Shown one piece after another: positions 3,617 through 50,100 of a stretch of DNA of 64,000 bases; the first letter of the stretch is position 1; each line of letters begins with the position of its first letter. This DNA comes from Planctomycetota bacterium (GTDB taxonomy: Bacteria; Planctomycetota; MHYJ01; JACQXL01). Where the stretch lies: the NCBI GenBank assembly GCA_043801445.1, contig JAZDMB010000030.1:78178-142177 (forward strand). The letters run 5' to 3'. Made by a program: the position numbers and the translations under genes. A model generated the notes under the pieces. That model did no database searches, had not been told where the DNA came from, and saw nothing but the letters and a program-made list of their open reading frames with translations.

Positions 3617-3865
3617 TAATGATGAAACCACGGATACACACTGATAAACACTGATTTTCATTATTCGTATTAATCAAATCCATAAATAAACACAGATTAT
3701 CTGCGTTCATCTGCCTGCCTACTTGGTGTTAATCTGTGGTTGCAATTTTAGATATCATCATTTTTGGAATATAATCATTCTTACAAATTAATCTTCAATT
3801 TATTTGACCTGACTCATATCGAATGTTATGCTTTATAAAAAGTCATAGGATTCCTATAAAATAAT

Positions 3866-5379: not shown

Positions 5380-5584
5380 AGGAGTGAAGTTAAGCCACCG
5401 ATTACACAGATTGAAAAGATAGTAAGCGGATTGAACTGATAATACGCCTATACGGGTGTTAAATCAGATTACTCTTTAATTAAAAATTAATCGGTGAAAT
5501 TCGGACATAAATATAAATTAAACAACAAATTACACTGATTTAATAACTTAATCTGTGTAATCTGTGGCTAAATGATTAATCATT

Positions 5585-8727: not shown

Positions 8728-8916
8728 TAGGCTGTCTAAAAAGCAACCACAGATACACACCAAGTAGGCAGGCAGATGGACACAGATAAATCAGTAGGTA
8801 GTAGGTAGAAAATAGTAGGTAGGAAAAACTCCCTACATTCTATCTCTTATAATATCAGTGTTTATCCGTGTTAATCTGTGGTTACGAAGTTTTCTTGAAA
8901 TAAAGGAGGATTTTAT

Positions 8917-12759: not shown

Positions 12760-12859
12760 TACTCGAGTACTTAGTACTAAAGTATCTTAGCGGCTAAATT
12801 CACCTGTGCCCGTAGGGTATACTTTCCTATACCGCGAGAAATCAGAAAGGAGAAATATT

Positions 12860-13834
12860 ATGAAAAACAGTGCAGCGATTCTGTTATTGGTAGTATTGGT
12901 AACTGTTTTTAATTATGGTTGCGGAAGCAGCAGCAGTGGTAGTTCTACCACCGCCGGGTCCACGACGGCCGTGGATGACTATGTTTGGGTGGCAAATTCT
13001 GGCGCTGTTACCCGCATTCTGAAATCAGATCCTGCTATCAGCACCACGATTACCGCGGGAGGTGGACGGGGAGTCGCAGTAGATGAAACCTATTGCTGGG
13101 CGGTAGAACAGGGCTCTAATTATATCATCCGCATCCTGAAATCAGACCCCGCTATCACGTCCACGATTGTGGTAGGAACTAACCCCTTTGGAATCGCGGT
13201 TGACGGGACCTATTGCTGGGTAGTAAATACTGGGTCTGCTAATGTCACCCGCATCCAGAAATCAAATACTGCTATTAGCGCCACGATTGGCGTGGGAAGT
13301 TCACCCCAGGACATTGCGGTAGACGCGACCTATTGCTGGGTGGCAAATCAGGGTAACGGCGCTAATAGTGTCACCCGCATCAAGAAATCAGACTTAACCA
13401 CGACCACGATTGCCGTAGGAACTAATCCCACCGGAATCGCGGTAGATGAGACCTATTGTTGGGTGGCAAATTATTATGATAATAATGTCAGCCGTATCTT
13501 GAAATCAAACCCGGCTATCAGCGACACGGTTACGGTGGAAAGTCGTCCAGTTGGAGTCGCGGTTGACGGAACCTATTGTTGGGTGGCAAATTATATTTCT
13601 TGCACTGTCACCCGCATCAAGAAATCAGACTTAACCACGTTCACGAGTCCGGTGGGAACTTCCCCTTGTGGAGTCGCGGTAGACGGAACCTATGTCTGGG
13701 TGACAAATTCTGTTGCTAATACTGTCACCCGTATCCTGAAATCAGACTTAAGCACAACCGCGATTGCGGTCGGAACTACTCCCGTATCGTTGGGCGATAT
13801 GACCGGCTATGCCTACGATAATTACGCCCGGTAG
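12860..13834 (+). CDS. YVTN-family beta-propeller repeat lipoprotein
   Basis: Lipobox 'NYGCGSSSSG'. About eight consecutive ~40-aa repeats 'TYCWVANxGxxxVTRIxKSDxxxxTTIxVGxxPxGIAVD' (YVTN 40-residue repeat). Confidence 0.65.
   Translation: MKNSAAILLLVVLVTVFNYGCGSSSSGSSTTAGSTTAVDDYVWVANSGAVTRILKSDPAISTTITAGGGRGVAVDETYCWAVEQGSNYIIRILKSDPAITSTIVVGTNPFGIAVDGTYCWVVNTGSANVTRIQKSNTAISATIGVGSSPQDIAVDATYCWVANQGNGANSVTRIKKSDLTTTTIAVGTNPTGIAVDETYCWVANYYDNNVSRILKSNPAISDTVTVESRPVGVAVDGTYCWVANYISCTVTRIKKSDLTTFTSPVGTSPCGVAVDGTYVWVTNSVANTVTRILKSDLSTTAIAVGTTPVSLGDMTGYAYDNYAR
12990..13790 (+). repeat. intragenic tandem repeat (~120 bp unit x ~7-8) encoding the YVTN propeller blades
   Basis: Recurring DNA blocks '...acctattgctgggtggcaaat...gtcacccgcatc(c/a)(a/t)gaaatcag...' visible at ~120-bp spacing. 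Confidence 0.7.
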
Positions 13835-14100: not shown

Positions 14101-16236
14101 ATGAAAATTATCGTATTGGTATTAGGTATTATCACTGGTTTAGCAATCTTGGGTTATGCCGCACAGGATAACAATAATACAGAACTGTCAAAAGCCAAAG
14201 AGGCAGATAAGGAAAAGATAGAAGTGTCAAAAGAGTTCTATAATTTAGGCTCAGATGCTTTCAAGGACAAAAAGTATGATAAAGCGCGTAGCTTCTTAAT
14301 CAAAGCAATTTCCTATAATACCGAATTCATTGAAGCTTATGCTTTACTCGGCGACATATACGCCATACTTAAAGAAGAGACATTGGCATTCGAAAATTAT
14401 AAGAAATGTATGGATTGTGTTGATAAATTGAAGTCACCTTCAGAAGAAATAATCAAGCTTCGTAATGATTTATTTACTAAAACAGCGAAATTCAGAGAAT
14501 GGGAGGCGAAATTATTAACTCTGGATGAGGAATTCGTTGGCCGATTACTTGAATTGGGCTTGAAAGCCAAGGAGGAAAACGATTATTTATTAGCCGAGGA
14601 TATATTTTCTTTGGTTGTAAAAGTAGATAAAAATAATTCAGAGGCTTCAGGTTATCTGCAGAAAGTCAAAGATGAATTAAGCCAGGGAGCCGGAGATGCA
14701 TCAAACGTTGAAGCCGCTCAAATTTATTATCAATCCGGGCTGGCGTTTTTTAAGCAAAATAAATACGAAGAAGCGATTGAAAAATTCAGTAAAGCGGTCT
14801 CGGCCAAAAAGTATTTCCTTGAAGCATTATTTAAGTTGGGTGAATGTTATGAAAAGACTAAAAATAATATTCAAGCGATAAATAATTATAGATTGTGTCT
14901 GAGGTCTTTAGAATTCAGAAAGGAACTTACCCAAGATGAAAAGAATATCTTAACAGCGGTTAAACGTAATCTTGGTGCAATTGATAATAAAAGTAAGGAA
15001 ATTACTACTGTCCGTGAGAAATATGTTACTGAACTGATAAAAACAGCTAAAGATTGCATATCGCAAAACTCGGTTGATTTTGCCAAAAGTATTTATCAGA
15101 AGATTCTCAAGATAGAACCGGGTAATAAAACCGCCGTTGAAGCAATTACCAGAATCGAAAAAGAATCTACGAAAAAGATTGGTTGGTTGTCATTAACTCT
15201 GGGAGGCGCTCACGGAGTCGGCGTGAAAACAGATGGCACTCTATGGAGCTGGGGTTTAAATCAATCCGGACAATTAGGTGATGGAACAAATACTAGCAGA
15301 AACAAACCTGGTCAGATTGGGAAAGATATCAATTGGTTGAGCATTGTAGCCGGTAGCAGTCATACCTTGGCTCTGAAATCGGATGGTAGTCTATGGGCAT
15401 GGGGTGCCAATGAGTATGGCCAATTGGGTGACGGTACGACCAAAAATCGAAATAGTCCAATTAGAATAGGCACTGATACAACATGGTCGGTAATTAATTG
15501 TGGGCTTAATCATAGTATTGCCTTGAAAATTAACGGAACTTTATGGACCTGGGGCAAAAATGGATATGGCGCACTGGGTGACGGCACATGGGAACATAAG
15601 AATGTCCCGATTCAGATAGGCATTGACACAAACTGGGCAATTATTGCGGGCGGGAGCGAGCTTACTGCTGTTTTAAAAACAGATGGGACTTTGTGGACCT
15701 GGGGCTGTAGTCTTTTTGGTCAATTGGGTGATGGGTTACCCAATCATAATAGAAATAGGCCGATGCAAATAGGCACGGATACTGACTGGGCCGCTATGGT
15801 CTCCAATAATGCGTCTATTACCGCTCTAAAAAAGAATGGCACTATCTGGACCTGGGGTAATAATAATTTCGGTCAACTTGGAGACGGTACATGGATAGAC
15901 AGAAATGTTCCGGTTCAAATGGGCATAGATACAGACTGGGCAATGATCCAAGCCGGCGGGGGTAATTTTATGGCTCTGAAATCGGACGGTAGTCTGTGGG
16001 CATGGGGCGCCAACGGTTCCGGCCAATTAGGGATTGGAACTAAAACGAATAAAAATATACCTACCCAGGTCGGCACTGATAAAAATTGGCAAACTATTGT
16101 ATTTGCAGGCTTATCCAATAGTTCTGCTGCCTTTAAGAACGACGGCAGTGTTTGGATTTGGGGTGCCAACGGCGCCGGGCAATTAGGCGACGGCACCACT
16201 ACTGATAAAAATTCTCTTACCCGAATGAGCCACTAA
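14101..16236 (+). CDS. TPR-repeat / RCC1-repeat beta-propeller fusion protein
   Basis: N-terminal signal anchor. TPR-like helical repeats (EAYALLGDIY, KLGECYEKTKNNIQAINNYRLCL). C-terminal seven RCC1 repeats, each with 'G(Q/A)LGDGT' and 'LKxDG(T/S)LW(T/A)WG'. Confidence 0.7.
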   Translation: MKIIVLVLGIITGLAILGYAAQDNNNTELSKAKEADKEKIEVSKEFYNLGSDAFKDKKYDKARSFLIKAISYNTEFIEAYALLGDIYAILKEETLAFENYKKCMDCVDKLKSPSEEIIKLRNDLFTKTAKFREWEAKLLTLDEEFVGRLLELGLKAKEENDYLLAEDIFSLVVKVDKNNSEASGYLQKVKDELSQGAGDASNVEAAQIYYQSGLAFFKQNKYEEAIEKFSKAVSAKKYFLEALFKLGECYEKTKNNIQAINNYRLCLRSLEFRKELTQDEKNILTAVKRNLGAIDNKSKEITTVREKYVTELIKTAKDCISQNSVDFAKSIYQKILKIEPGNKTAVEAITRIEKESTKKIGWLSLTLGGAHGVGVKTDGTLWSWGLNQSGQLGDGTNTSRNKPGQIGKDINWLSIVAGSSHTLALKSDGSLWAWGANEYGQLGDGTTKNRNSPIRIGTDTTWSVINCGLNHSIALKINGTLWTWGKNGYGALGDGTWEHKNVPIQIGIDTNWAIIAGGSELTAVLKTDGTLWTWGCSLFGQLGDGLPNHNRNRPMQIGTDTDWAAMVSNNASITALKKNGTIWTWGNNNFGQLGDGTWIDRNVPVQMGIDTDWAMIQAGGGNFMALKSDGSLWAWGANGSGQLGIGTKTNKNIPTQVGTDKNWQTIVFAGLSNSSAAFKNDGSVWIWGANGAGQLGDGTTTDKNSLTRMSH

Positions 16237-16268: not shown

Positions 16269-17846
16269 ATGCTGTCGAAATCAAAATATATTATATTTGG
16301 GATAGTGATTATTTCTTTTTTAGGTGTTTTGAATTATTCGTTGCCTGATGATAATTTAGTTCCAGCTTCAAATCAGGATGTGACCGACCCGCAAAAAATC
16401 GAGCTGGCAAAAGATTCCTATAATTTAGCTTTAGCCGCATACAAGGAGAAGAACTATGAAAGATCCTGTGATTATTTGTCAAAAGCGATTTCGTTTTATC
16501 CAAATTATACCGAAGCGTATGCTTTATTAGGTAACGTTTATTATTCATTGAAGGAAGAAGAACGGGCATACGAATCCTATAAGAAATGCATAGAACTTAT
16601 TGATAAATCCGAGTCACCGTCTGATGATATAAGCAAACTGCGTGCTGAAATATTACCCAAGATTGAGAAAATTCTGGTATTGGATGCCAAAATATCCGTT
16701 TTGGATAAGGAATTTGTGGCACGAATATTGGAATTAGGTATGGAATCTATGCAAAGAGAGGATTATTTATTGGCAGAAGAAACATTTTTACTAATACTTA
16801 AAATAGACGCGAATAACACTGAAGTATCGGATAATCTTCAAAAGGTTAAAAATATATTAGCCCAAAATGATGGCAGCAATAACTACGAAATAGCCAAAGC
16901 ATATTATCAGTCCGGGCTGTTGCTTTTTAATCAAAACAAGTATGACGAAGCAATCGAAAAATTCAATAAAGCCCTTTCAACTAAAAAGGATTTTGTCGAG
17001 GCATTATTTAAGTTAGGCGAATGTTATGAAAACACAAAGGATACCATTCAAGCAATAATCAATTATCGATTATGTCTAAAATCTCTGGAATCCAAGAAAG
17101 AACTTGTCCAGGATGAAAAAAATATCCTGACCAGTGCTAAACGCAATCTTGATAAAATAGATGTTAAAGGCAAAGAATTTAAGATTGCAAAAGAAAAATA
17201 CGTAGCGGAGCTTCTGAAAACAGTCAATGAATACGCCTCTAAAAAATATCTTAATTGTGCAGTAAAGTTATACCGAAAAATTTTGAGTGTTGATCCTGTT
17301 AACAAAGCCGCTTCGGACGGGCTGGCGAAAGTGCGCAATGATATGACGCAAAAGGCGGTTGGCTCTAAGAAAGAACGCCTGATTTTCAGCGGCGAAGATA
17401 TGAGTGGATGGGATGTGAACAGTATATGGTTGCCGCTCTGGTCAGTCGATAAACCATTTCTGGTTTTTAACAGAACATCAAGAGATCAACCCAGCCTTAT
17501 TGAATATAAAACTGCCTTCCCCGAAAATTATATTTTAGCATTCGAACTAATTTTAGAAAAAAGATTGCCTATAACAGGGTATGAAGTTGGTATTTGTTAC
17601 GGTCAAAGTAGCAATGAGGGTAAAATATCATTACAAATAGTTAATACAATTTTTTCCAAACTAAACAACTGGGAAAAAATACGCTTTACTTTTAGCAAAC
17701 AAGATATGACTTTTAAATTGGAGGAAGGGTCTAAGGTGACCAAGAAGGGCAAGCTGGAAGTATCTGGAGTTTATAAAATCGGCATAAACGCACGCGGTTA
17801 TATAGCCAAATTCCGCAATATTACCCTACTGGATTTGGATCAATGA
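16269..17846 (+). CDS. TPR-repeat protein, paralog of the N-terminal module of the upstream gene, with a different ~170-aa C-terminal domain
   Basis: Residues ~20-360 align closely with the 14101-16236 protein (e.g. 'KLGECYENTKDTIQAIINYRLCLKSLESKKELVQDEKNILTSAKRNL'). The C-terminus 'LIFSGEDMSGWDVN...FRNITLLDLDQ' is unrelated to RCC1. Confidence 0.6.
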   Translation: MLSKSKYIIFGIVIISFLGVLNYSLPDDNLVPASNQDVTDPQKIELAKDSYNLALAAYKEKNYERSCDYLSKAISFYPNYTEAYALLGNVYYSLKEEERAYESYKKCIELIDKSESPSDDISKLRAEILPKIEKILVLDAKISVLDKEFVARILELGMESMQREDYLLAEETFLLILKIDANNTEVSDNLQKVKNILAQNDGSNNYEIAKAYYQSGLLLFNQNKYDEAIEKFNKALSTKKDFVEALFKLGECYENTKDTIQAIINYRLCLKSLESKKELVQDEKNILTSAKRNLDKIDVKGKEFKIAKEKYVAELLKTVNEYASKKYLNCAVKLYRKILSVDPVNKAASDGLAKVRNDMTQKAVGSKKERLIFSGEDMSGWDVNSIWLPLWSVDKPFLVFNRTSRDQPSLIEYKTAFPENYILAFELILEKRLPITGYEVGICYGQSSNEGKISLQIVNTIFSKLNNWEKIRFTFSKQDMTFKLEEGSKVTKKGKLEVSGVYKIGINARGYIAKFRNITLLDLDQ

Positions 17847-17849
17847 ACT

Positions 17850-18750
17850 TGACTAAATTATTGTTGTTCTTGTTAAGCATTTTATTTTCTGATTAATATT
17901 TCATATCCCATATTTCTTAACTTTCTTGTTCATATTCCTGCTTGTTGGCATAGGTAGGGGTGTTAGTAAAATTTCTACGGGATACTCGTTAACGGCGAGG
18001 AATACCAAGCCATTCCGGATGGACATTTCATAAACCCTATATTACATCTGGGTTTTGGCGATGACTATCATCCGTCACCTTTAAGTAGGGCAGTTGTGCG
18101 ATAAACAGGCATACCTCTAACACCTTATTTCAGGCAGGTCACAGACTCATCTATCCTTGTAGTCAAATATCCCTAAGATATATAGGTTGGTCGCCTATAT
18201 GTGCTTATTTTATAGGATATACCGGTATAGGCTCTATTGGGTGGTAGGGGATACCCTACCCCCATACCACCAATACCATACCCCTTATAACTTATTCATA
18301 TACCTGATACTATCCTGTGATATATAGTATATACACCGGTAACCGAATATGTATTACCTTATATACTTACTGATACTACGATGTAGTCCATCTGATAGTA
18401 TATGTTATACTACAGGATAATATCAGATAATACAATGTTTAGTCAGGTATATTATATCGTATAGTATTGCATATGATAATTCATACTACCTTATAGTATA
18501 TAGTATAGTATGGGATAGATCAACTCATAGCATGGCATAGTCACACTATGTGGCATAGTTAGACACAGATACCGTATAGGTGAAATTCATTACAGAGAGT
18601 AATATACGGAAAATATATAATTATATTGACCCCATTAGAGATAATTGATATGGTTTACATATATGATAACCCCTCTGTCCCTGCGGGACTACGGGATAAC
18701 TGCCCGTAATTCTTCCCGACGGGACTCAAACAGGCAGTAAGGAGGTGTAA
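17850..18750. other. ~0.9 kb non-coding block of skewed, word-repetitive composition (tata/gtat/catag/ggtag words; near-palindrome GGTAGGGGATACCCTACCCCC)
   Basis: No ORF of 60 aa or more on either strand. Contains 'gggtggtaggggataccctacccccataccaccaataccatacccc' and long runs of 'tatagtata/catagcatggcatag'. Word content resembles the repeat arrays at 47.9-50.1 kb. Confidence 0.5.
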
Positions 18751-18751
18751 T

Positions 18752-19531
18752 ATGCCGATGATAAGTAAGGTGGATATACCGGTAATACCTGATGTGAGGC
18801 CGCACCAGGATATGAGCAGTAAATGGGAGGAGAATAGCAAGAATAACGCCCAGACTGCGAATGAACGCCGTAAATGGCGCATCAAGAACGATAATGACTA
18901 CGGCCAGATTATCGCCACACCTGCCGCGGAGAAATATAAGGCACGGGTTCAATTTACATCCGCCGGCGGTAATGACCGAGATGCCGAGGATATCTACGTT
19001 ATGCACCGCAAGAAACTGCTCAAGTCATACAAGAAATACCAAAAAGGATTGGATATCGTCTATGCCGAGGATGGCAAGAAATTCAAAGAGGCGATAGAGA
19101 AGAAGAAGGGTAACTGGGAAGAGGGCATCGGCACAACATTGCGATTTACCGGCAGTCGCGCCAGAGGCAGGCAGGTAGTCTCGGTAGTCGGCAAATGGCT
19201 GACCGGCGACCCGGCTACAGTCGGTATTTTACCGGAGGGTTCTCAGATTGATGGCGGTCCTTATGACATTGCGCCGGAGCGGCTGAAAGCCACATTACGC
19301 GCCTCGTTGACCCAACTCCTGACCCAGACCGGCATAATTATATCCGAATCAGAGTATAACCCGGCTCTGATGCTCAGGCACAACAGCCGAATAAAGGATT
19401 TTCTCTCGCGGATGTCCGACCCGACTAAAGCCATCAATTGGTCAATAGACCGCCTGACTGATAAATCGTATTGTGTCTGGTACCTGAACCAGGGGCAGTT
19501 GTTTCTGGGCATCCAGATTTATGCGCCGTAG
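18752..19531 (+). CDS. hypothetical protein (ORFan; visibly GC-richer than flanks)
   Basis: Strong RBS 'TAAGGAGGTGTAATATG'. 259-aa ORF with no recognisable motif. Codon composition is GC-richer than neighbouring genes. Upstream leader has several short GC hairpins (tacggg-ataactg-cccgta; gtccc-tgc-gggac). Confidence 0.5.
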   Translation: MPMISKVDIPVIPDVRPHQDMSSKWEENSKNNAQTANERRKWRIKNDNDYGQIIATPAAEKYKARVQFTSAGGNDRDAEDIYVMHRKKLLKSYKKYQKGLDIVYAEDGKKFKEAIEKKKGNWEEGIGTTLRFTGSRARGRQVVSVVGKWLTGDPATVGILPEGSQIDGGPYDIAPERLKATLRASLTQLLTQTGIIISESEYNPALMLRHNSRIKDFLSRMSDPTKAINWSIDRLTDKSYCVWYLNQGQLFLGIQIYAP

Positions 19532-19715
19532 GAACGTGAAACCACAGATAGACACGGATAAACACTGATTTTTATATGGGTTAATCAAATCCCGATTAAA
19601 CACTGATTATCTGTGTTCATCGGTGTTCATCTGTGGTTGTCATACCTGTGGCAGATCCGCCTTTGGCGGACAGTTTTCTTGACCCCGTTTGGAATATTTT
19701 ATATATTCATATAAT

Positions 19716-20186
19716 ATGATAGGTATAGGATTTGATATACATAGATTAATTAAGGGCCGTGAATTTATCTTGGGCGGCATAAAGATCGATTATCCCAGAG
19801 GACTTAAGGGCCATTCTGATGCCGATGTGCTTCTGCACGCTTTGATTGATGCGCTTCTGGGCGCATCAAAATTGGGCGATATCGGTAATTTATTCCCCGA
19901 TACTGACCCTTGTTATACAAATATCCCCAGTTCAATATTGCTTAAAAAGACTTTAGACTTTATTCGTTCACACAAAAAGAGGTTTAAGATGCAGGATGTA
20001 GATAGTATTATATTTTTAGAAGAGCCCAAATTAGGCAGGAAGAAAAAGGTTATGGCGAACAATATCGCTCGCTTATTAAATATACCGATCAACAATGTTA
20101 ATGTCAAAGCCAAGACAATGGAGGGTTTGGGACCGATAGGGCACAAGAGCGCCGTTGCCGCTTTGGTCTTGGTGAATCTGGCCTAA
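19716..20186 (+). CDS. ispF: 2-C-methyl-D-erythritol 2,4-cyclodiphosphate synthase
   Basis: 'MIGIGFDIHRL...GHSDADVLLHALIDALLGA...LGDIG..FPDTDP' are hallmark IspF motifs. Start taken at the internal ATG at 19716. Confidence 0.85.
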   Translation: MIGIGFDIHRLIKGREFILGGIKIDYPRGLKGHSDADVLLHALIDALLGASKLGDIGNLFPDTDPCYTNIPSSILLKKTLDFIRSHKKRFKMQDVDSIIFLEEPKLGRKKKVMANNIARLLNIPINNVNVKAKTMEGLGPIGHKSAVAALVLVNLA

Positions 20187-43636: not shown

Positions 43637-43798
43637 ATATGTTTTTCAACATTTTATACTAAAGATAAATTAACTTAGCAAGAAGAAAGAGAAAGATATG
43701 ACAATTAATCTGTGTAATCTGTGGCTCAAGTTTAGCTCCTAAAAAGCCGATAAATACTTAACATCACTAATATATAATTCTTCAACAAGGAGTATGTT

Positions 43799-47530: not shown

Positions 47531-47984
47531 GCAACGACTTGCGGGAGTCCCGACCGAACGTCGGGGGATGCCTGCCTGCGCTAAAGCTTCGGCGGGTAAT
47601 CCATACCTAATTATCCATCCGTAAAATCTGTTTTATCAGTTTAATCCACTTACAGATTCTTCGTATTTCTTACACACTAATATTAAATCCGTGTTCATCT
47701 GAGTTCATCTGTGTCCCATATTTCTTTGCGGTGAATCTTCTCTTAACCTACCTACTACCTACTTCATACTGCATACTACATACTATTAATTCGTGTCAAT
47801 CTTGTGAAATCTGTGGTTACGTTTCGGTTTTTATTTACCGTATTCCTCTTTCTTCTATCCGTAAGGATACCATAAGTAACGGGTTTGTTACTTATCCGGC
47901 AGGTATGAGAAATGAAGGTTTCATCTAACTTCTTGATTTGAAATGGATTAGAAAAAATAAAAAAATATGCAGAAATCCGAAAAT

Positions 47985-48250
47985 AGCACTCTCTGTTACT
48001 TATGGGGACCTATCCACTACGGGATTCTACCCTACCTACCTATGGTTATATGGGGTATATCCTATGGTTAGTAGGGATACTACCTATGGTTATATGGGGT
48101 ACTACCTATGGTTAGTAGGGATACCTCCTATGGTTATATGGGATACTACCTATGGTTATATGGTATACCTCTACTGGAGGGTACGGTATCCCCCCTGGGT
48201 AGGTAGGGTAGTATAGGGGGGAGATAGGGGGATGGGGGTATACCTAATTT
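47985..48250 (+). repeat. degenerate tandem array (~22-bp unit 'tacctatggttatatgggGatac', ~8 copies) ending in a G-run block
   Basis: Unit copies are visible directly. Ends '...ggggggagatagggggatgggggtatacc'. Read-through ORF 47938-48216 is periodic and judged non-coding. Confidence 0.75.
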
Positions 48251-48647
48251 TGGTAAAGTGATGCCTTAAAACTGGTTTATATCGTTGGATTAACTAAAGA
48301 CGGTGGGTGTCATTAAGCCAAGTGTATAGTATAAAGTATGAAGTAGGTAGTATGTAGAAGGTAGGAGAAGAGAAGACGTAAGATTTGCCACAGATTAAGC
48401 GGATTTGGCGGAATGCCTCAAATAAACGGTGAATTGTCTTGACAAAGGATTAGGGAATATGTATTAATTCACAATAGATATGGATAATTCGGGTGACGCT
48501 CTCCTACGCTCTTTGAGCGGAGTTTATCCCGCTCACAGCGGGGGAAGGGCAAGCCATACCGCATAGTTAAGATGTCCACGGAATTATGCGGGTGACAGCA
48601 TACTGAATTCCAATAATAAATATGTATTATGTATCCTGAATATAAAT

Positions 48648-49337
48648 ATGAAAAAAGTATTTAACTTTCTGATTGTTATTGGGTTATTTATTATCGCTTA
48701 TATATGCTGGAAGTATCATGACGAGATTCGTAAAGATTGGTATTTATACTCAACTCTTATCCTTGCAAGCATTGCTATCTTTCAAGACCCAATAAAACGA
48801 TGGTGGAATAAACCAATATTAGTTTTCACCCACAAGGAAACAAGCCCTTTCAGAAGAGAAAATACACTACTTATAGAACCTACTCTAACAACTTCTAAAG
48901 TTCTTAGTACCTATGAATGTTTTATGGTAGAAAACAATGGACGAGGTTCTGCTTTACAATGCCGATGCCAAATTCGTGAAGTAAGACAAAATGGTAAATC
49001 TTTTGGTTGTTACAGAGGATATCCTTTACATTGGGCCCGTAGGCCAGATGCAGAAATTGACCCATTGAAAGCTGAAAGACTTAATATTGGTCCAGGGGAA
49101 AGCGAGTTTCTAGATTTATGTTTCACCGCGTCTATAGATTCCGATATCCATTTAGCAAAATATCATACAATACCTATCGGTATTCCCGACTTCATTCCAT
49201 CTGGCGTATATGAGGTTAAATTAATATTTAGTGGTGATAATTTTAAACCGTATTTCATAGTCTTTGAGATTAAAAAAGATAACTCAGCGAATATCAATAG
49301 TATCAGTGTCAAACTAATAAAATACTGGCAAGGATAA
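48648..49337 (+). CDS. hypothetical membrane-anchored protein (ORFan) enclosed by inverted repeat arrays
   Basis: N-terminal TM helix (FNFLIVIGLFIIAYICW), Cys-containing soluble domain. No family recognised. Confidence 0.45.
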   Translation: MKKVFNFLIVIGLFIIAYICWKYHDEIRKDWYLYSTLILASIAIFQDPIKRWWNKPILVFTHKETSPFRRENTLLIEPTLTTSKVLSTYECFMVENNGRGSALQCRCQIREVRQNGKSFGCYRGYPLHWARRPDAEIDPLKAERLNIGPGESEFLDLCFTASIDSDIHLAKYHTIPIGIPDFIPSGVYEVKLIFSGDNFKPYFIVFEIKKDNSANINSISVKLIKYWQG

Positions 49338-49595: not shown

Positions 49596-50100
49596 GCAGG
49601 GGGGGGTATACCCCCTCTACTGCCTCAGTAGAGGGCATCTACTGGATTATTAACCCATATCTCCTGAGGTAGTAGGTGGCGTCTGCTGAGGTATCTGACC
49701 ACCTCTCCTAAGATAGTAGACTGTATCTGCTGAGGTACCTGACCATCTCTTCTGAGATAGTAGACGGCATCTGCTGGATTGTCAACACCCCGCCACTGAG
49801 TTAGGGGGTGGTATCTGCCGGATTGGCAGCCCATGTCTCCTGAGATAGGGGATAGTATCTGCTGGATTATTAACACATCTCTCCTGAGGTAGTAGACGGT
49901 ATCCGGTGAGTTACCCGACCATATCCCCTGAGGTAGTAGATGGTATCTGCTGAGGTATCCAACCATATCCCCTGAGGTAGTAGATGGTATCTGCTGAGAT
50001 ATCCAACCATATCCCCTGAGATAGTAGATGGTATCTGCTGGATTGTCAACACCCCTCCACTGAGTTAGGGGGTAGTATCTGCTGAGTTACCTCCACCCTG
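49596..50100 (+). repeat. degenerate tandem array (~45-bp unit 'ccatatcccctgaggtagtagatggtatctgctgaggtatccaa', ~9 copies), inverted relative to the 47985-48250 array
   Basis: Unit contains 'ggtatccaaccatatcccctgaggtag', which resembles the reverse complement of the upstream unit ('ggtatccccatataaccataggtag'). Begins with the palindrome 'ggggggtataccccc'. Confidence 0.7.

What the first reader, a model, noticed from the sequence alone, without database searches (positions are those of the whole stretch)
17850..19531. GC-shifted ORFan with multi-hairpin leader behind a 0.9-kb word-repetitive non-coding block
The block 17850-18750 has no ORFs and an unusual tata/gtat/catag/ggtag vocabulary with internal near-palindromes. 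It is followed by a strong SD and a 259-aa ORF whose codon composition is visibly GC-richer than the flanking core genes, which suggests foreign origin. Its leader (18655-18745) contains several short GC hairpins (gtccc-tgc-gggac; tacggg-ataactg-cccgta; cccgacggg). Protein sequence gives no hint of function. Together this looks like a horizontally acquired or regulatory-RNA-controlled locus, possibly related to the 48-50-kb cassette through its shared word content.
Basis: partly seen in the sequence, partly recalled or inferred. Interest (0 to 1): 0.7.

Follow-up and report, generated by a model that had tools for sequence, protein, structure and literature searches.

The report
Unknown gene with conserved AT-rich upstream block
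A real gene from a widespread but undescribed protein family sits in a Planctomycetota genome behind a 0.63-kb non-coding block that travels with it in five related sequences. The block is neither protein-coding nor a folded RNA, so it is most likely a DNA-level control region, and its function is still unknown.

Summary
The raw observations hold. The stretch 17847-18751 has no credible ORF and the highest density of TAG/TATA words of any intergenic segment. The 259-aa ORF has a strong Shine-Dalgarno site and the highest GC and GC3 of 50 ORFs in the window.

The ORF is not an ORFan. It belongs to an unnamed family of about 260 aa with at least 152 clusters at 50% identity, found in bacteria and archaea. 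Members lie in virus-like contigs and variable islands, and two are fused to trypsin-like peptidases. The predicted fold is confident (pLDDT 96) and has no neighbour in PDB or BFVD.

Six distinct loci, counting the window, carry close relatives at 74-98% identity. All have the same block of about 625 bp directly upstream of a conserved TTGAC promoter. The flanking genes differ in every locus. About 363 bp of the block is almost free of gaps.

The block shows no codon periodicity, no Rfam match and a structure conservation index of about 0.2. Its inverted repeats show no strand preference. The leader hairpins are not conserved.

My best reading is an accessory gene cassette with a DNA-level regulatory platform, at confidence about 0.4. 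A link to the 48-50-kb region rests on shared words only, not on homology.

The parts
17847..17969 (+). Spacer after the TPR gene, not conserved. It includes 17891-17940, a 50-nt piece also found left of the block in strain variant L005.
   Evidence: blastn similarity to L005 starts at 17970, with an isolated 82% match at 17891-17940. The other relatives do not align here.
17985..17999 (+). Short hairpin (CTCG-TTAACGG-CGAG) at the left edge of the conserved module.
   Evidence: Read from the sequence. L005 has CTCG...CGAG and L006/L009 have CGGG...CCCG at the same place. The pattern looks compensatory but rests on few sequences.
18001..18365 (+). Left half of the conserved block. It starts at AATACCAAG, is almost free of gaps in six sequences, has more C than G on the + strand, and carries ATACC words mostly in one orientation.
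   Evidence: The distance from AATMCCAAG to the core motif is 242-243 nt in all six loci. Alignment columns 65-428 contain only two single-base gaps. GC skew is -0.12 to -0.30, and ATACC occurs 6-10 times on + against 1-4 times on - in all six. Substitutions show no 3-nt periodicity.
18244..18263 (.). Core motif GTAGGGGATACCCTACCCCC: a 6-4-6 palindrome (18244-18249 / 18254-18259) followed by a cluster of TACC words that runs to about 18305.
   Evidence: The motif is identical in five of the six loci and has two changes in L009. It occurs once in the window; chance expectation is 0.00. TACC positions are conserved at 18252, 18257, 18265, 18279 and 18301.
18301..18429 (.). Inverted repeat with arms of 31 nt (18301-18331 and 18399-18429) separated by 67 nt.
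   Evidence: The arms are 77% complementary in the window. Four of the six sequences keep 22-24 Watson-Crick pairs of 31. G-T mismatches number 8 on one strand and 9 on the other, so there is no strand preference. A profile of the block matches its own reverse strand in all six lineages.
18366..18625 (+). Right half of the block. It has about 30% GC, is rich in TATAGTA/ATACTA words in both orientations, tolerates insertions and deletions, and ends in an A/T-rich stretch just upstream of the promoter.
   Evidence: Word positions, gaps of 22-25 columns among relatives and composition.
18626..18654 (+). Sigma-70-type promoter of the ORF: TTGACC, 17 nt, TATGGT, with TG before the -10 hexamer.
   Evidence: Promoter scan. 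TTGAC is invariant in all six loci. The sequence resembles the promoter-like site before ispF at 19679-19707 (repeat family D4).
18655..18751 (+). 5' leader with three short GC hairpins (18677-18689, 18690-18708, 18714-18724) and the Shine-Dalgarno site AAGGAGG (18739-18745).
   Evidence: Sequence. Folding z = -1.42. No consensus structure among relatives and variable length (columns 1001-1100). No Rfam match.
18752..19531 (+). Gene for a 259-aa basic protein (pI 9.5) of an unnamed family. The predicted fold is a helical bundle of about 12 helices with an N-terminal strand and a C-terminal beta-hairpin.
   Evidence: Homologs. Purifying selection: 85% amino-acid identity against 64% identity at 4-fold sites with L006. 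AlphaFold2 model with pLDDT 96 and pTM 0.86. No hit in Pfam, PHROGs, NCBIfam, PADLOC or PDB sequences. No structural neighbour. pI.
19540..19638 (.). Inverted pair of 30-nt arms made of 10-nt words (CCACAGAT / ACACTGAT). This is a generic repeat found after many genes of this lineage and is not part of the conserved module.
   Evidence: The same words follow family genes in other loci, but the sequence downstream of the stop codon is not otherwise conserved.
19656..19679 (+). Intrinsic-terminator-like hairpin TCCGCCTTTGGCGGA followed by a T-rich tail.
   Evidence: Terminator scan. The hairpin is also present in L005.

Best explanation
The locus is a self-contained accessory gene cassette of about 1.55 kb (about 17985-19531). 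The protein-coding part is a real, expressed-looking gene of a widespread but undescribed family associated with viruses and genomic islands. The gene has its own sigma-70-type promoter, a 97-nt leader and a strong ribosome-binding site.

The roughly 625 bp upstream of the promoter most likely act as double-stranded DNA. I read them as a regulatory platform that a trans-acting regulator or a nucleoid protein occupies to keep the promoter off until a signal arrives. The candidate binding features are a 6-4-6 palindrome, oriented ATACC words and 31-bp inverted repeats, held at fixed spacing.

Shown: the gene is real; the block is conserved and always linked to the gene; the block is neither coding nor a folded RNA; the promoter is conserved. 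Inferred: protein binding to the block, the silencing logic, and the function of the protein.
For: 1. The block is linked to the gene. All six distinct loci that encode close relatives (74-98% identity), counting the window, carry the block at the same place. The flanking genes differ in all of them. A profile of the block finds it nowhere else in 319 kb of fetched DNA. A metagenome scan with the core motif found it only next to this gene; the three other hits were chance palindromes.

2. The block is constrained. A 20-mer is identical in five of the six loci. The spacing of 242-243 nt is fixed. About 363 columns contain only two 1-nt gaps although identity between clades is only about 50%. 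The block stays at 36-41% GC whatever the host GC.

3. It is not coding. Stop codons fill all frames under any reassignment, and substitutions show no 3-nt periodicity.

4. It is not a folded RNA. There is no Rfam hit. The consensus energy is only -32 (+) or -37 (-) kcal/mol over about 700 nt, and the covariation term is positive. The structure conservation index is 0.19 (+) and 0.20 (-). Single-sequence folding z-scores are symmetric at -2.85 and -2.95. G-T mismatches in the large inverted repeat show no strand preference, 8 against 9.

5. The only promoter conserved in position is the one at the 3' end of the block.

6. Tight regulation is a family trait. Paralogous 'type B' genes (263-265 aa) are preceded by their own regulator genes, namely an ECF-type sigma factor and a CI/LexA-like S24 repressor, and by a conserved 30-aa peptide gene. 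The window's subfamily lacks these and has the block instead.
Against: No binding protein has been identified and no operator consensus has been shown. In the closest pairs the block diverges about as fast as 4-fold degenerate sites (0.88 against 0.89; 0.71 against 0.64). Constraint is therefore demonstrable only for islands, for length, and at deeper divergence.

The left half is strand-asymmetric in C/G skew and in ATACC orientation, which a transcript would explain as well as oriented binding sites do. Against column-shuffled alignments the consensus folding energy is significantly low (z = -8.7 and -5.7). The structure predicted by RNAalifold shows more compensatory pairs than shuffles do, but that test is circular. 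Only six sequences in about three clades are available. No expression data exist.
Confidence: 0.4

Rival explanations
1. The block is the gene for a long non-coding RNA on either strand. The RNA would have little global structure and a few local hairpins, and would act in cis on the neighbouring gene or together with its basic protein product.
For: All six sequences share strand asymmetry: C>G skew of -0.12 to -0.30 and a bias in ATACC orientation. Length is fixed over 363 nt. The consensus folding energy is lower than in column-shuffled alignments (z = -8.7 for + and -5.7 for -; local z = -14.7 for columns 301-460). Some helices show changes on both sides, for example 18316-18326 / 18348-18358. 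The subfamily's protein is strongly basic, with pI 9.5 and net charge +10.
Against: The structure conservation index is only 0.19-0.20, and the covariation term is positive on both strands. There is no Rfam match even at E <= 10. No promoter or terminator conserved in position flanks the block on either strand. The folding signal is equal on both strands, and the large inverted repeat shows no wobble-pair strand bias. The compensatory-pair test was run on a structure derived from the same alignment.
Confidence: 0.25
2. This is the first reader's reading: a horizontally acquired ORFan whose expression is controlled by a structured regulatory RNA (riboswitch or attenuator) in the leader 18655-18745.
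For: The hairpins exist. The ORF is the GC/GC3 outlier of the window. The genomic position is not conserved among relatives.
Against: There is no Rfam hit. Leader folding z is -1.42. Leaders of relatives are 90-285 nt long with different hairpins, and the consensus energy is -0.85 kcal/mol. The protein has at least 152 related clusters, so it is not an ORFan.
Confidence: 0.05
3. The block is a decaying relic without function, for example the remains of former regulator genes or of a repeat array, carried along only because it lies next to a selected gene.
For: Block identity is about equal to 4-fold-site identity in the closest pairs. There are no ORFs. The right half tolerates insertions and deletions of 22-25 nt. 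The lineage has other word-repetitive intergenic blocks.
Against: A 20-mer is identical in five of six loci even though identity between clades is about 50%. About 363 columns hold only two 1-nt gaps; I would expect many more under neutrality, though that expectation is my own estimate and was not computed. Window-L009 block identity is 0.67-0.74 against 0.46 at 4-fold sites. The AT-rich composition is held in hosts with 51-54% GC flanks. There is no similarity to the upstream regions or the peptide gene of the type B loci.
Confidence: 0.12
4. The block is the cis-acting site of a mobile or replicating element: a transposon or MITE end, an attachment site, or an iteron-type origin served by the 259-aa protein.
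For: The left boundary is sharp, 10-30 nt before AATACCAAG, in three independent pairs. The flanks differ in every locus. The block contains 31-bp inverted repeats, repeated words and a core palindrome. Related genes occur in several copies per genome.
Against: No recombinase, transposase or Rep gene is in the module or next to it. The right boundary is simply the stop codon. The window holds a single copy. There are no regular direct repeats of 17-22 bp; the only tandem repeat is a 7-mer in 2.3 copies. The protein model has no neighbour in the PDB, and the listed weak hits include no initiator or recombinase. No target-site duplication was seen at the edges when reading the sequence, though this was not tested formally.
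Confidence: 0.1

Closest known systems
Accessory or island genes held silent through an extended AT-rich upstream region (xenogeneic-silencing targets of H-NS, Lsr2, MvaT or Rok type). This comparison rests on my own knowledge, not on a test here.
   Same: A GC-shifted gene in variable genomic contexts has its own promoter. A long AT-rich, TA-step-rich non-coding stretch lies directly upstream, and its composition is kept whatever the host GC.
   Different: Such silencer targets are not known for conserved sequence islands at fixed spacing, or for co-inheritance of a specific block with the gene across species. In this window the block (GC 0.36) is barely more AT-rich than the genome average (0.39). 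No silencer protein was identified.
Iteron-type plasmid or phage origins next to their rep gene (R6K, pSC101, F and P1 type). This comparison rests on my own knowledge.
   Same: A gene for a protein of about 260 aa is preceded by several hundred bp of AT-rich DNA with repeated words and inverted repeats that reach the gene's promoter.
   Different: There are no regular tandem direct repeats. The protein has no structural or sequence similarity to any solved protein. The locus is chromosomal and single-copy.
Large structured non-coding RNAs of bacteria and phages (OLE, GOLLD, ROOL, HEARO, raiA).
   Same: The size is similar (about 600 nt), the element is conserved across species, and it is associated with mobile or virus-like genes.
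   Different: There is no Rfam match, the structure conservation index is about 0.2, and there is no net covariation.
The paralogous 'type B' cassettes of the same protein family in Planctomycetota
   Same: The protein family is the same (50-57% identity), the gene is likewise GC-rich, the genomic context is likewise variable, and there is again a long upstream region.
   Different: Type B loci carry regulator genes (an ECF-type sigma factor, an S24 CI/LexA-like repressor), a conserved 30-aa peptide gene upstream and a tail-fibre-like gene downstream (phrog_892, E = 4.5e-39). The window's type A has none of these and has the AT-rich block instead.

Membership tests
Any Rfam family (riboswitch, leader, sRNA, large ncRNA) | A match to the family's covariance model at or above its gathering score | tested here: not met
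   No match in the whole window at gathering score. For 17700-19800 at E <= 10 there were only five sub-threshold chance hits, the best E = 0.32 and all far below gathering scores.
Structured non-coding RNA (generic) | A secondary structure conserved among homologs: a high structure conservation index and net favourable covariation | tested here: not met
   The structure conservation index is 0.19 (+) and 0.20 (-). The RNAalifold covariation term is +4.03 and +2.71 kcal/mol. The only local exceptions are the core hairpin and one 11-bp helix.
Cis-regulatory leader RNA (riboswitch or attenuator) in 18655-18751 | A leader structure conserved in relatives and more stable than chance | tested here: not met
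   Folding z = -1.42. The consensus energy of six leaders is -0.85 kcal/mol, and their lengths range from 90 to 285 nt.
Protein-coding gene or pseudogene in the block | An open frame, possibly with a recoded stop codon, or 3-nt periodicity of substitutions | tested here: not met
   There are 3-12 of each stop codon in every frame. The longest open stretch is 89 codons even with one stop reassigned. Mismatches by phase are 706/679/683, p = 0.73.
Iteron-type replication origin plus Rep protein | At least three phased direct repeats of 17-22 bp | tested here: not met
   Tandem Repeats Finder reports only a 7-nt repeat in 2.3 copies in the block. The direct-repeat families found are two- or three-copy and 70-80% alike.
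Iteron-type replication origin plus Rep protein | A neighbouring protein related to a known replication initiator | tested here: not met
Insertion sequence, MITE or integrative element | A transposase or recombinase gene, or several copies with terminal inverted repeats and target duplications | tested here: not met
   No such gene lies in or beside the module. The block occurs once in the window and once per locus. The right edge is the stop codon. Target duplications were only looked for by eye.
Prophage or known phage structural protein family | A match to PHROGs or to phage genomes, with phage genes alongside in the window | tested here: not met
   No PHROG match for the protein or for 98 relatives. 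No tblastn hit in 50,697 phage records or in IMG/VR scans. The neighbours in the window are TPR/RCC1, ispF, MarR and efflux genes. Distant relatives do lie in virus-like contigs.
Known anti-phage defence system component | A match to a PADLOC model | tested here: not met
   No match for the window protein. Only five single-member hits, the best E = 5.1e-4, among 98 relatives. Some relatives sit next to restriction-modification genes.
Target of a xenogeneic silencer or nucleoid protein (the working model) | Binding of a silencer or regulator to the AT-rich block, with derepression on its removal | not testable with these tools
   Only indirect evidence is available: a conserved AT-rich composition, palindromic and oriented motifs at fixed spacing, and a promoter at the 3' end of the block.

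The most novel reading that the evidence does not exclude
The block and the protein may be two halves of one co-evolving system. In this reading the basic helical protein, which has a fold without known relatives, binds along the length-constrained block of about 625 nt. The block would serve either as DNA or as a low-structure transcript. The pair would form a nucleoprotein unit derived from a virus-like ancestor, for example a packaging, partition or immunity module. In this subfamily it would have replaced the regulator, peptide and tail-fibre genes of the paralogous cassettes.
Probability: 0.1. Interest if true: 0.8.

Novelty: new variant of a known kind. Interest (0 to 1): 0.45.

Why it matters
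Two pieces of genomic dark matter are tied together here. The first is a protein family of at least 152 clusters, present in bacteria and archaea. It has a confidently predicted fold that matches nothing in PDB or BFVD. Its partners recur across loci: trypsin-like peptidases, tail-fibre-like proteins and SOS-type repressors. The second is a non-coding element whose length is conserved over 363 bp. It is neither coding nor a folded RNA. If the block proves to be a binding platform, or the protein's nucleic-acid partner, it would give an experimental handle on the family. It would also be an example of long-range, spacing-constrained gene control in Planctomycetota, where regulation is poorly known. 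If the block is only a silencing spacer, the finding is an ordinary accessory gene with an unusual neighbour.

Tried and rejected
1. Rfam, at gathering score over the window and at E <= 10 over 17700-19800: nothing.
2. tRNA and tmRNA search: none.
3. Stop-codon recoding to open a frame in the block: no frame opens.
4. Codon periodicity of substitutions: none.
5. Global RNA structure on either strand: rejected.
6. Conserved leader structure: rejected.
7. Homology of the block to the 48-50-kb region or to anything else in the window: only 12-17-nt chance matches.
8. A shared GGG-AT-CCC palindrome: at chance level.
9. Homology of the two unknown proteins (259 aa and 229 aa): none.
10. The core motif as an independent element: the three extra metagenome hits lie in a coding region, a terminator and a phage-like ORF, and are unrelated.
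11. Block or protein in cultured phages, plasmids or IMG/VR: none.
12. Pfam, PHROGs, NCBIfam, PADLOC and PDB sequence searches with 98 relatives: no family.
14. The first structure prediction, from 22 close sequences, failed with pLDDT 45. It worked only with the 98-sequence alignment.
15. The type B 30-aa peptide gene or type B upstream sequences inside the block: absent.
16. The upstream 280-aa protein of L005 as a trypsin-like peptidase: only a motif-level resemblance, not significant.
17. One literature search: no paper found.
Full report
WHAT IS THERE. The window is a chromosomal stretch of a Planctomycetota genome assembled from a metagenome. The closest homologs are annotated 'MAG: Planctomycetota bacterium' or 'Candidatus Brocadiia'. 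Another ORF of the window is 100% identical to NCBI protein V1871_04590, which lies on a 187-kb contig.

A TPR-repeat gene ends at 17846, and ispF starts near 19689. Between them lie five features:
- a 905-bp stretch without credible ORFs (17847-18751);
- a sigma-70-type promoter, TTGACC-17-TATGGT, at 18626-18654;
- a 97-nt leader and the Shine-Dalgarno site AAGGAGG at 18739-18745;
- a 259-aa ORF at 18752-19531;
- an inverted pair of 10-nt words at 19540-19638, then a terminator-like hairpin at 19656-19670.

CHECK OF THE OBSERVATION.
- The longest ORF in the gap is 46 aa, and all frames are full of all three stop codons.
- The word bias is real and large. TATAGTA is about 108-fold over the rest of the window. 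The gap has 44 TAG/TATA-type words per kb, against 6 per kb in coding DNA and 0-30 per kb in other intergenic segments. The runner-up is 47531-48647.
- The ORF has the highest GC (0.508) and GC3 (0.614) of 50 ORFs. That is about 2.4 and 2.7 standard deviations above the mean, although the window itself is heterogeneous.
- The three leader hairpins exist, but the leader folds no better than shuffled sequence (z = -1.42).

THE PROTEIN. It matches no family in Pfam, PHROGs, NCBIfam, PADLOC or among PDB sequences. It is nevertheless not an orphan.

A word-indexed search found 21 relatives, all from Planctomycetota MAGs or metagenomes. An exhaustive profile search found 152 clusters at 50% identity with E <= 0.001. 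Most are 255-270 aa long, and one comes from a Bathyarchaeia MAG. Scanning 98 of these relatives still gave no named family.

The gene is under purifying selection: with L006, amino-acid identity is 85% against 64% at 4-fold sites. The window's subfamily is basic, with pI 9.5 and net charge +10; the family median pI is 9.0.

CONTEXT OF THE FAMILY. Two subfamilies occur in Planctomycetota.

'Type B' genes (263-265 aa, 50-57% identical to the window protein) lie in a recurrent small cassette. In order, it contains:
- one or more regulator genes: an ECF-type sigma factor, a CI/LexA-like S24 peptidase (phrog_4, E = 5.8e-21), or an unnamed protein of about 195 aa;
- a conserved 30-aa peptide gene (MFKSMSGFWKKV...);
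- the family gene;
- a small Cys-rich ORF;
- a tail-fibre-like protein with about 11-residue repeats (phrog_892, E = 4.5e-39).

Several copies occur per genome, for example four in MAG219. One MAG, JAZDFB01, has both types.

Two distant members are fused to an N-terminal trypsin-like peptidase, and one type B locus has such a peptidase gene upstream. Distant members lie in virus-like contigs, one of them from Bathyarchaeia. One sits between an EcoRV-type restriction-modification pair and rmuC, and one sits among metabolic genes.

The family therefore looks like cargo of viruses and variable islands. Its biochemical function was not established.

THE BLOCK. 'Type A' genes (258-260 aa) form the window's subfamily. 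Six distinct loci are known: the window, L005 (98%), L006 (85%), L012 (78%), L001 (77%) and L009 (74%). In all six, the 0.7-1 kb upstream is free of ORFs and alignable.

The conserved part begins 10-30 nt before the motif AATMCCAAG (window 18001). After exactly 242-243 nt it reaches the core GTAGGGGATACCCTACCCCC (18244-18263). It ends 356-404 nt further on at an invariant TTGAC, the -35 hexamer. Alignment columns 65-428 (window 18001-18365) contain only two single-base gaps, although identity between clades is only about 50%. The right half tolerates gaps of 22-25 nt.

The flanking genes differ in every locus. This is true even in L005, whose gene is 96% identical in nucleotides to the window's but which has different genes to the left. 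Downstream of the stop codon nothing is conserved except generic CCACAGAT-type words.

A profile of the block finds one copy per type A locus and none elsewhere in 319 kb of fetched DNA. A metagenome scan with the core motif found it only next to this gene, plus three unrelated chance palindromes. It has no match in phage, plasmid or IMG/VR collections.

The compositional contrast belongs to the module itself. The gene has GC 0.51-0.58 and the block 0.36-0.41 in all hosts, whatever the flank GC (0.36-0.54).

WHAT THE BLOCK IS NOT.
- It is not coding.
- It is not a member of any Rfam family.
- It is not a globally folded RNA. The consensus energies are -32 and -37 kcal/mol for about 700 columns, against about -170 and -184 for single sequences. 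That gives a structure conservation index of 0.19-0.20, and the covariation terms are positive.
- It is not homologous to the 48-50-kb region.
- It is not a relic of the type B upstream genes.
- It is not an iteron array, since it has no regular tandem repeats.

WHAT THE BLOCK DOES SHOW.
1. Conserved sequence islands at fixed spacing.
2. A 6-4-6 palindrome in the core, followed by a run of TACC words at conserved positions.
3. In all six sequences, a C>G skew and a one-orientation bias of ATACC in the left half.
4. Dyad symmetry in the centre and right. The block profile matches its own reverse strand in all six lineages. A 31-bp inverted repeat, 18301-18331 / 18399-18429, keeps 22-24 Watson-Crick pairs in four sequences. 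Its G-T mismatches are equally frequent on either strand, 8 against 9.
5. A consensus folding energy lower than in column-shuffled alignments (z = -8.7 and -5.7). The signal comes mainly from the core hairpin and one 11-bp helix. Its size is similar on both strands, as it is for single-sequence folding.

Equal signals on both strands point to symmetry at the DNA level rather than to a transcript. The skew in the left half keeps the RNA reading alive.

A caveat on constraint. In the closest pairs the block diverges about as fast as 4-fold sites (0.88 against 0.89; 0.71 against 0.64). It is clearly better conserved only at greater distance (0.67-0.74 against 0.46). The strongest arguments for selection are the invariant 20-mer, the fixed spacing, the near absence of insertions and deletions, and the maintained composition.

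INTERPRETATION. The best-supported reading, at about 0.4, is an accessory gene cassette whose promoter is governed by a long DNA-level platform. Operator-like palindromes and oriented words at fixed spacing would be bound by a regulator or nucleoid protein encoded elsewhere. In type B cassettes that role would be played by the adjacent sigma and repressor genes.

The rivals are:
- a low-structure non-coding RNA (0.25);
- a functionless relic (0.12);
- a cis site of a mobile or replicating element (0.10);

The ORFan claim, the regulatory-RNA idea and the link to the 48-50-kb cassette are not.

NOVELTY AND SCORE. Neither the protein family nor the block matches anything described in the libraries searched, and one literature search found nothing. 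Function is unknown, and only six sequences of the block exist.

I rate it a new variant of a known kind: an accessory gene with an extended upstream control region. My interest score is 0.45. The main surprises are the length-constrained non-coding block, which is neither coding nor a folded RNA, and the confident fold without neighbours. The most novel reading not excluded is that the block is the protein's own nucleic-acid partner, at probability about 0.1.

Noticed in passing
window 8793-8826, 47748-47785, 48327-48364, 18492-18507; L004 5577-5620: Short tandem arrays of related heptamers (AGTAGGT, CTACATA, TAGTATG, TATAGTA) lie in intergenic DNA, in L004 directly after a stop codon. The arrays at 47748-47785 and 48327-48364 are inverted relative to each other and bracket the 22-nt repeat array. 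They may be a lineage-wide family of intergenic repeats, comparable to the STRR heptamers of cyanobacteria.
   Followed up: partly
window 19540-19638, 3629-3655, 8853-8884, 5549-5566, 43706-43723, 47693-47711; also L003, L004, L006, L012, L019, L020 downstream of the family gene: 10-nt words of the type CCACAGAT(A) / ACACTGAT(A) recur after genes, often as inverted pairs. They look like a REP-like element associated with terminators and shared across these Planctomycetota.
   Followed up: partly
window 48036-48168 and 49627-50091: Two regular non-coding tandem arrays: a 22-nt unit CTACCTATGGTTATATGGGATA in 6 copies, and a 44-nt unit in about 9.7 copies. They flank an unrelated 229-aa ORF (48648-49337). 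The segment 47531-48647 is the second-richest in TAG/TATA words in the window. Their function is unknown, and they share no homology with the 18-kb block.
   Followed up: partly
window 48648-49337; L035, L034: The 229-aa ORF, which has an N-terminal hydrophobic segment, belongs to another patchy unnamed family that includes a Pacearchaeota MAG. Its 71% relative lies after a Tsp45I-type restriction-modification pair, with Trypsin_2 and DUF2582 genes nearby. DUF2582 also sits next to the fusion of a trypsin-like peptidase with the 259-aa family in L034. This hints at a shared pool of island genes.
   Followed up: partly
window 13070-13747 (ORF 12806-13834): Tandem repeats of about 120 nt (40 aa), about 5.7 copies, lie inside a GC-rich 342-aa ORF that has no significant Pfam match.
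   Followed up: no
L003 1915-2007, L004 5715-5807 and seven other type B loci: A conserved 30-aa amphipathic peptide gene (MFKSMSGFWKKVIKAIIEIVLDLIQKK...) lies 200-280 nt upstream of every type B family gene examined. A small Cys-rich ORF lies between the family gene and the tail-fibre-like gene.
   Followed up: partly
L005 1155-1997: In the strain variant L005 the gene just left of the module encodes a 280-aa protein with a GSGxLI...LTAQHVV motif like the start of trypsin-like peptidases. The similarity is not significant (E = 0.13). It echoes the peptidase fusions and neighbours of the family.
   Followed up: partly
window 14101-16236 and L001 1-617: An RCC1-repeat gene lies 2.5 kb (window) and 5.4 kb (L001) upstream of the module, with a 77% DNA match over 83 nt. 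This could be a remnant of synteny or a paralog match. It slightly tempers the claim that the module has no conserved neighbourhood.
   Followed up: no
window 18621-18651 and 19674-19704: The promoter of the 259-aa gene and the promoter-like site before ispF share TTGACCCC plus an AT-rich spacer, 74% identity over 31 nt. This suggests a common promoter form in this genome.
   Followed up: no
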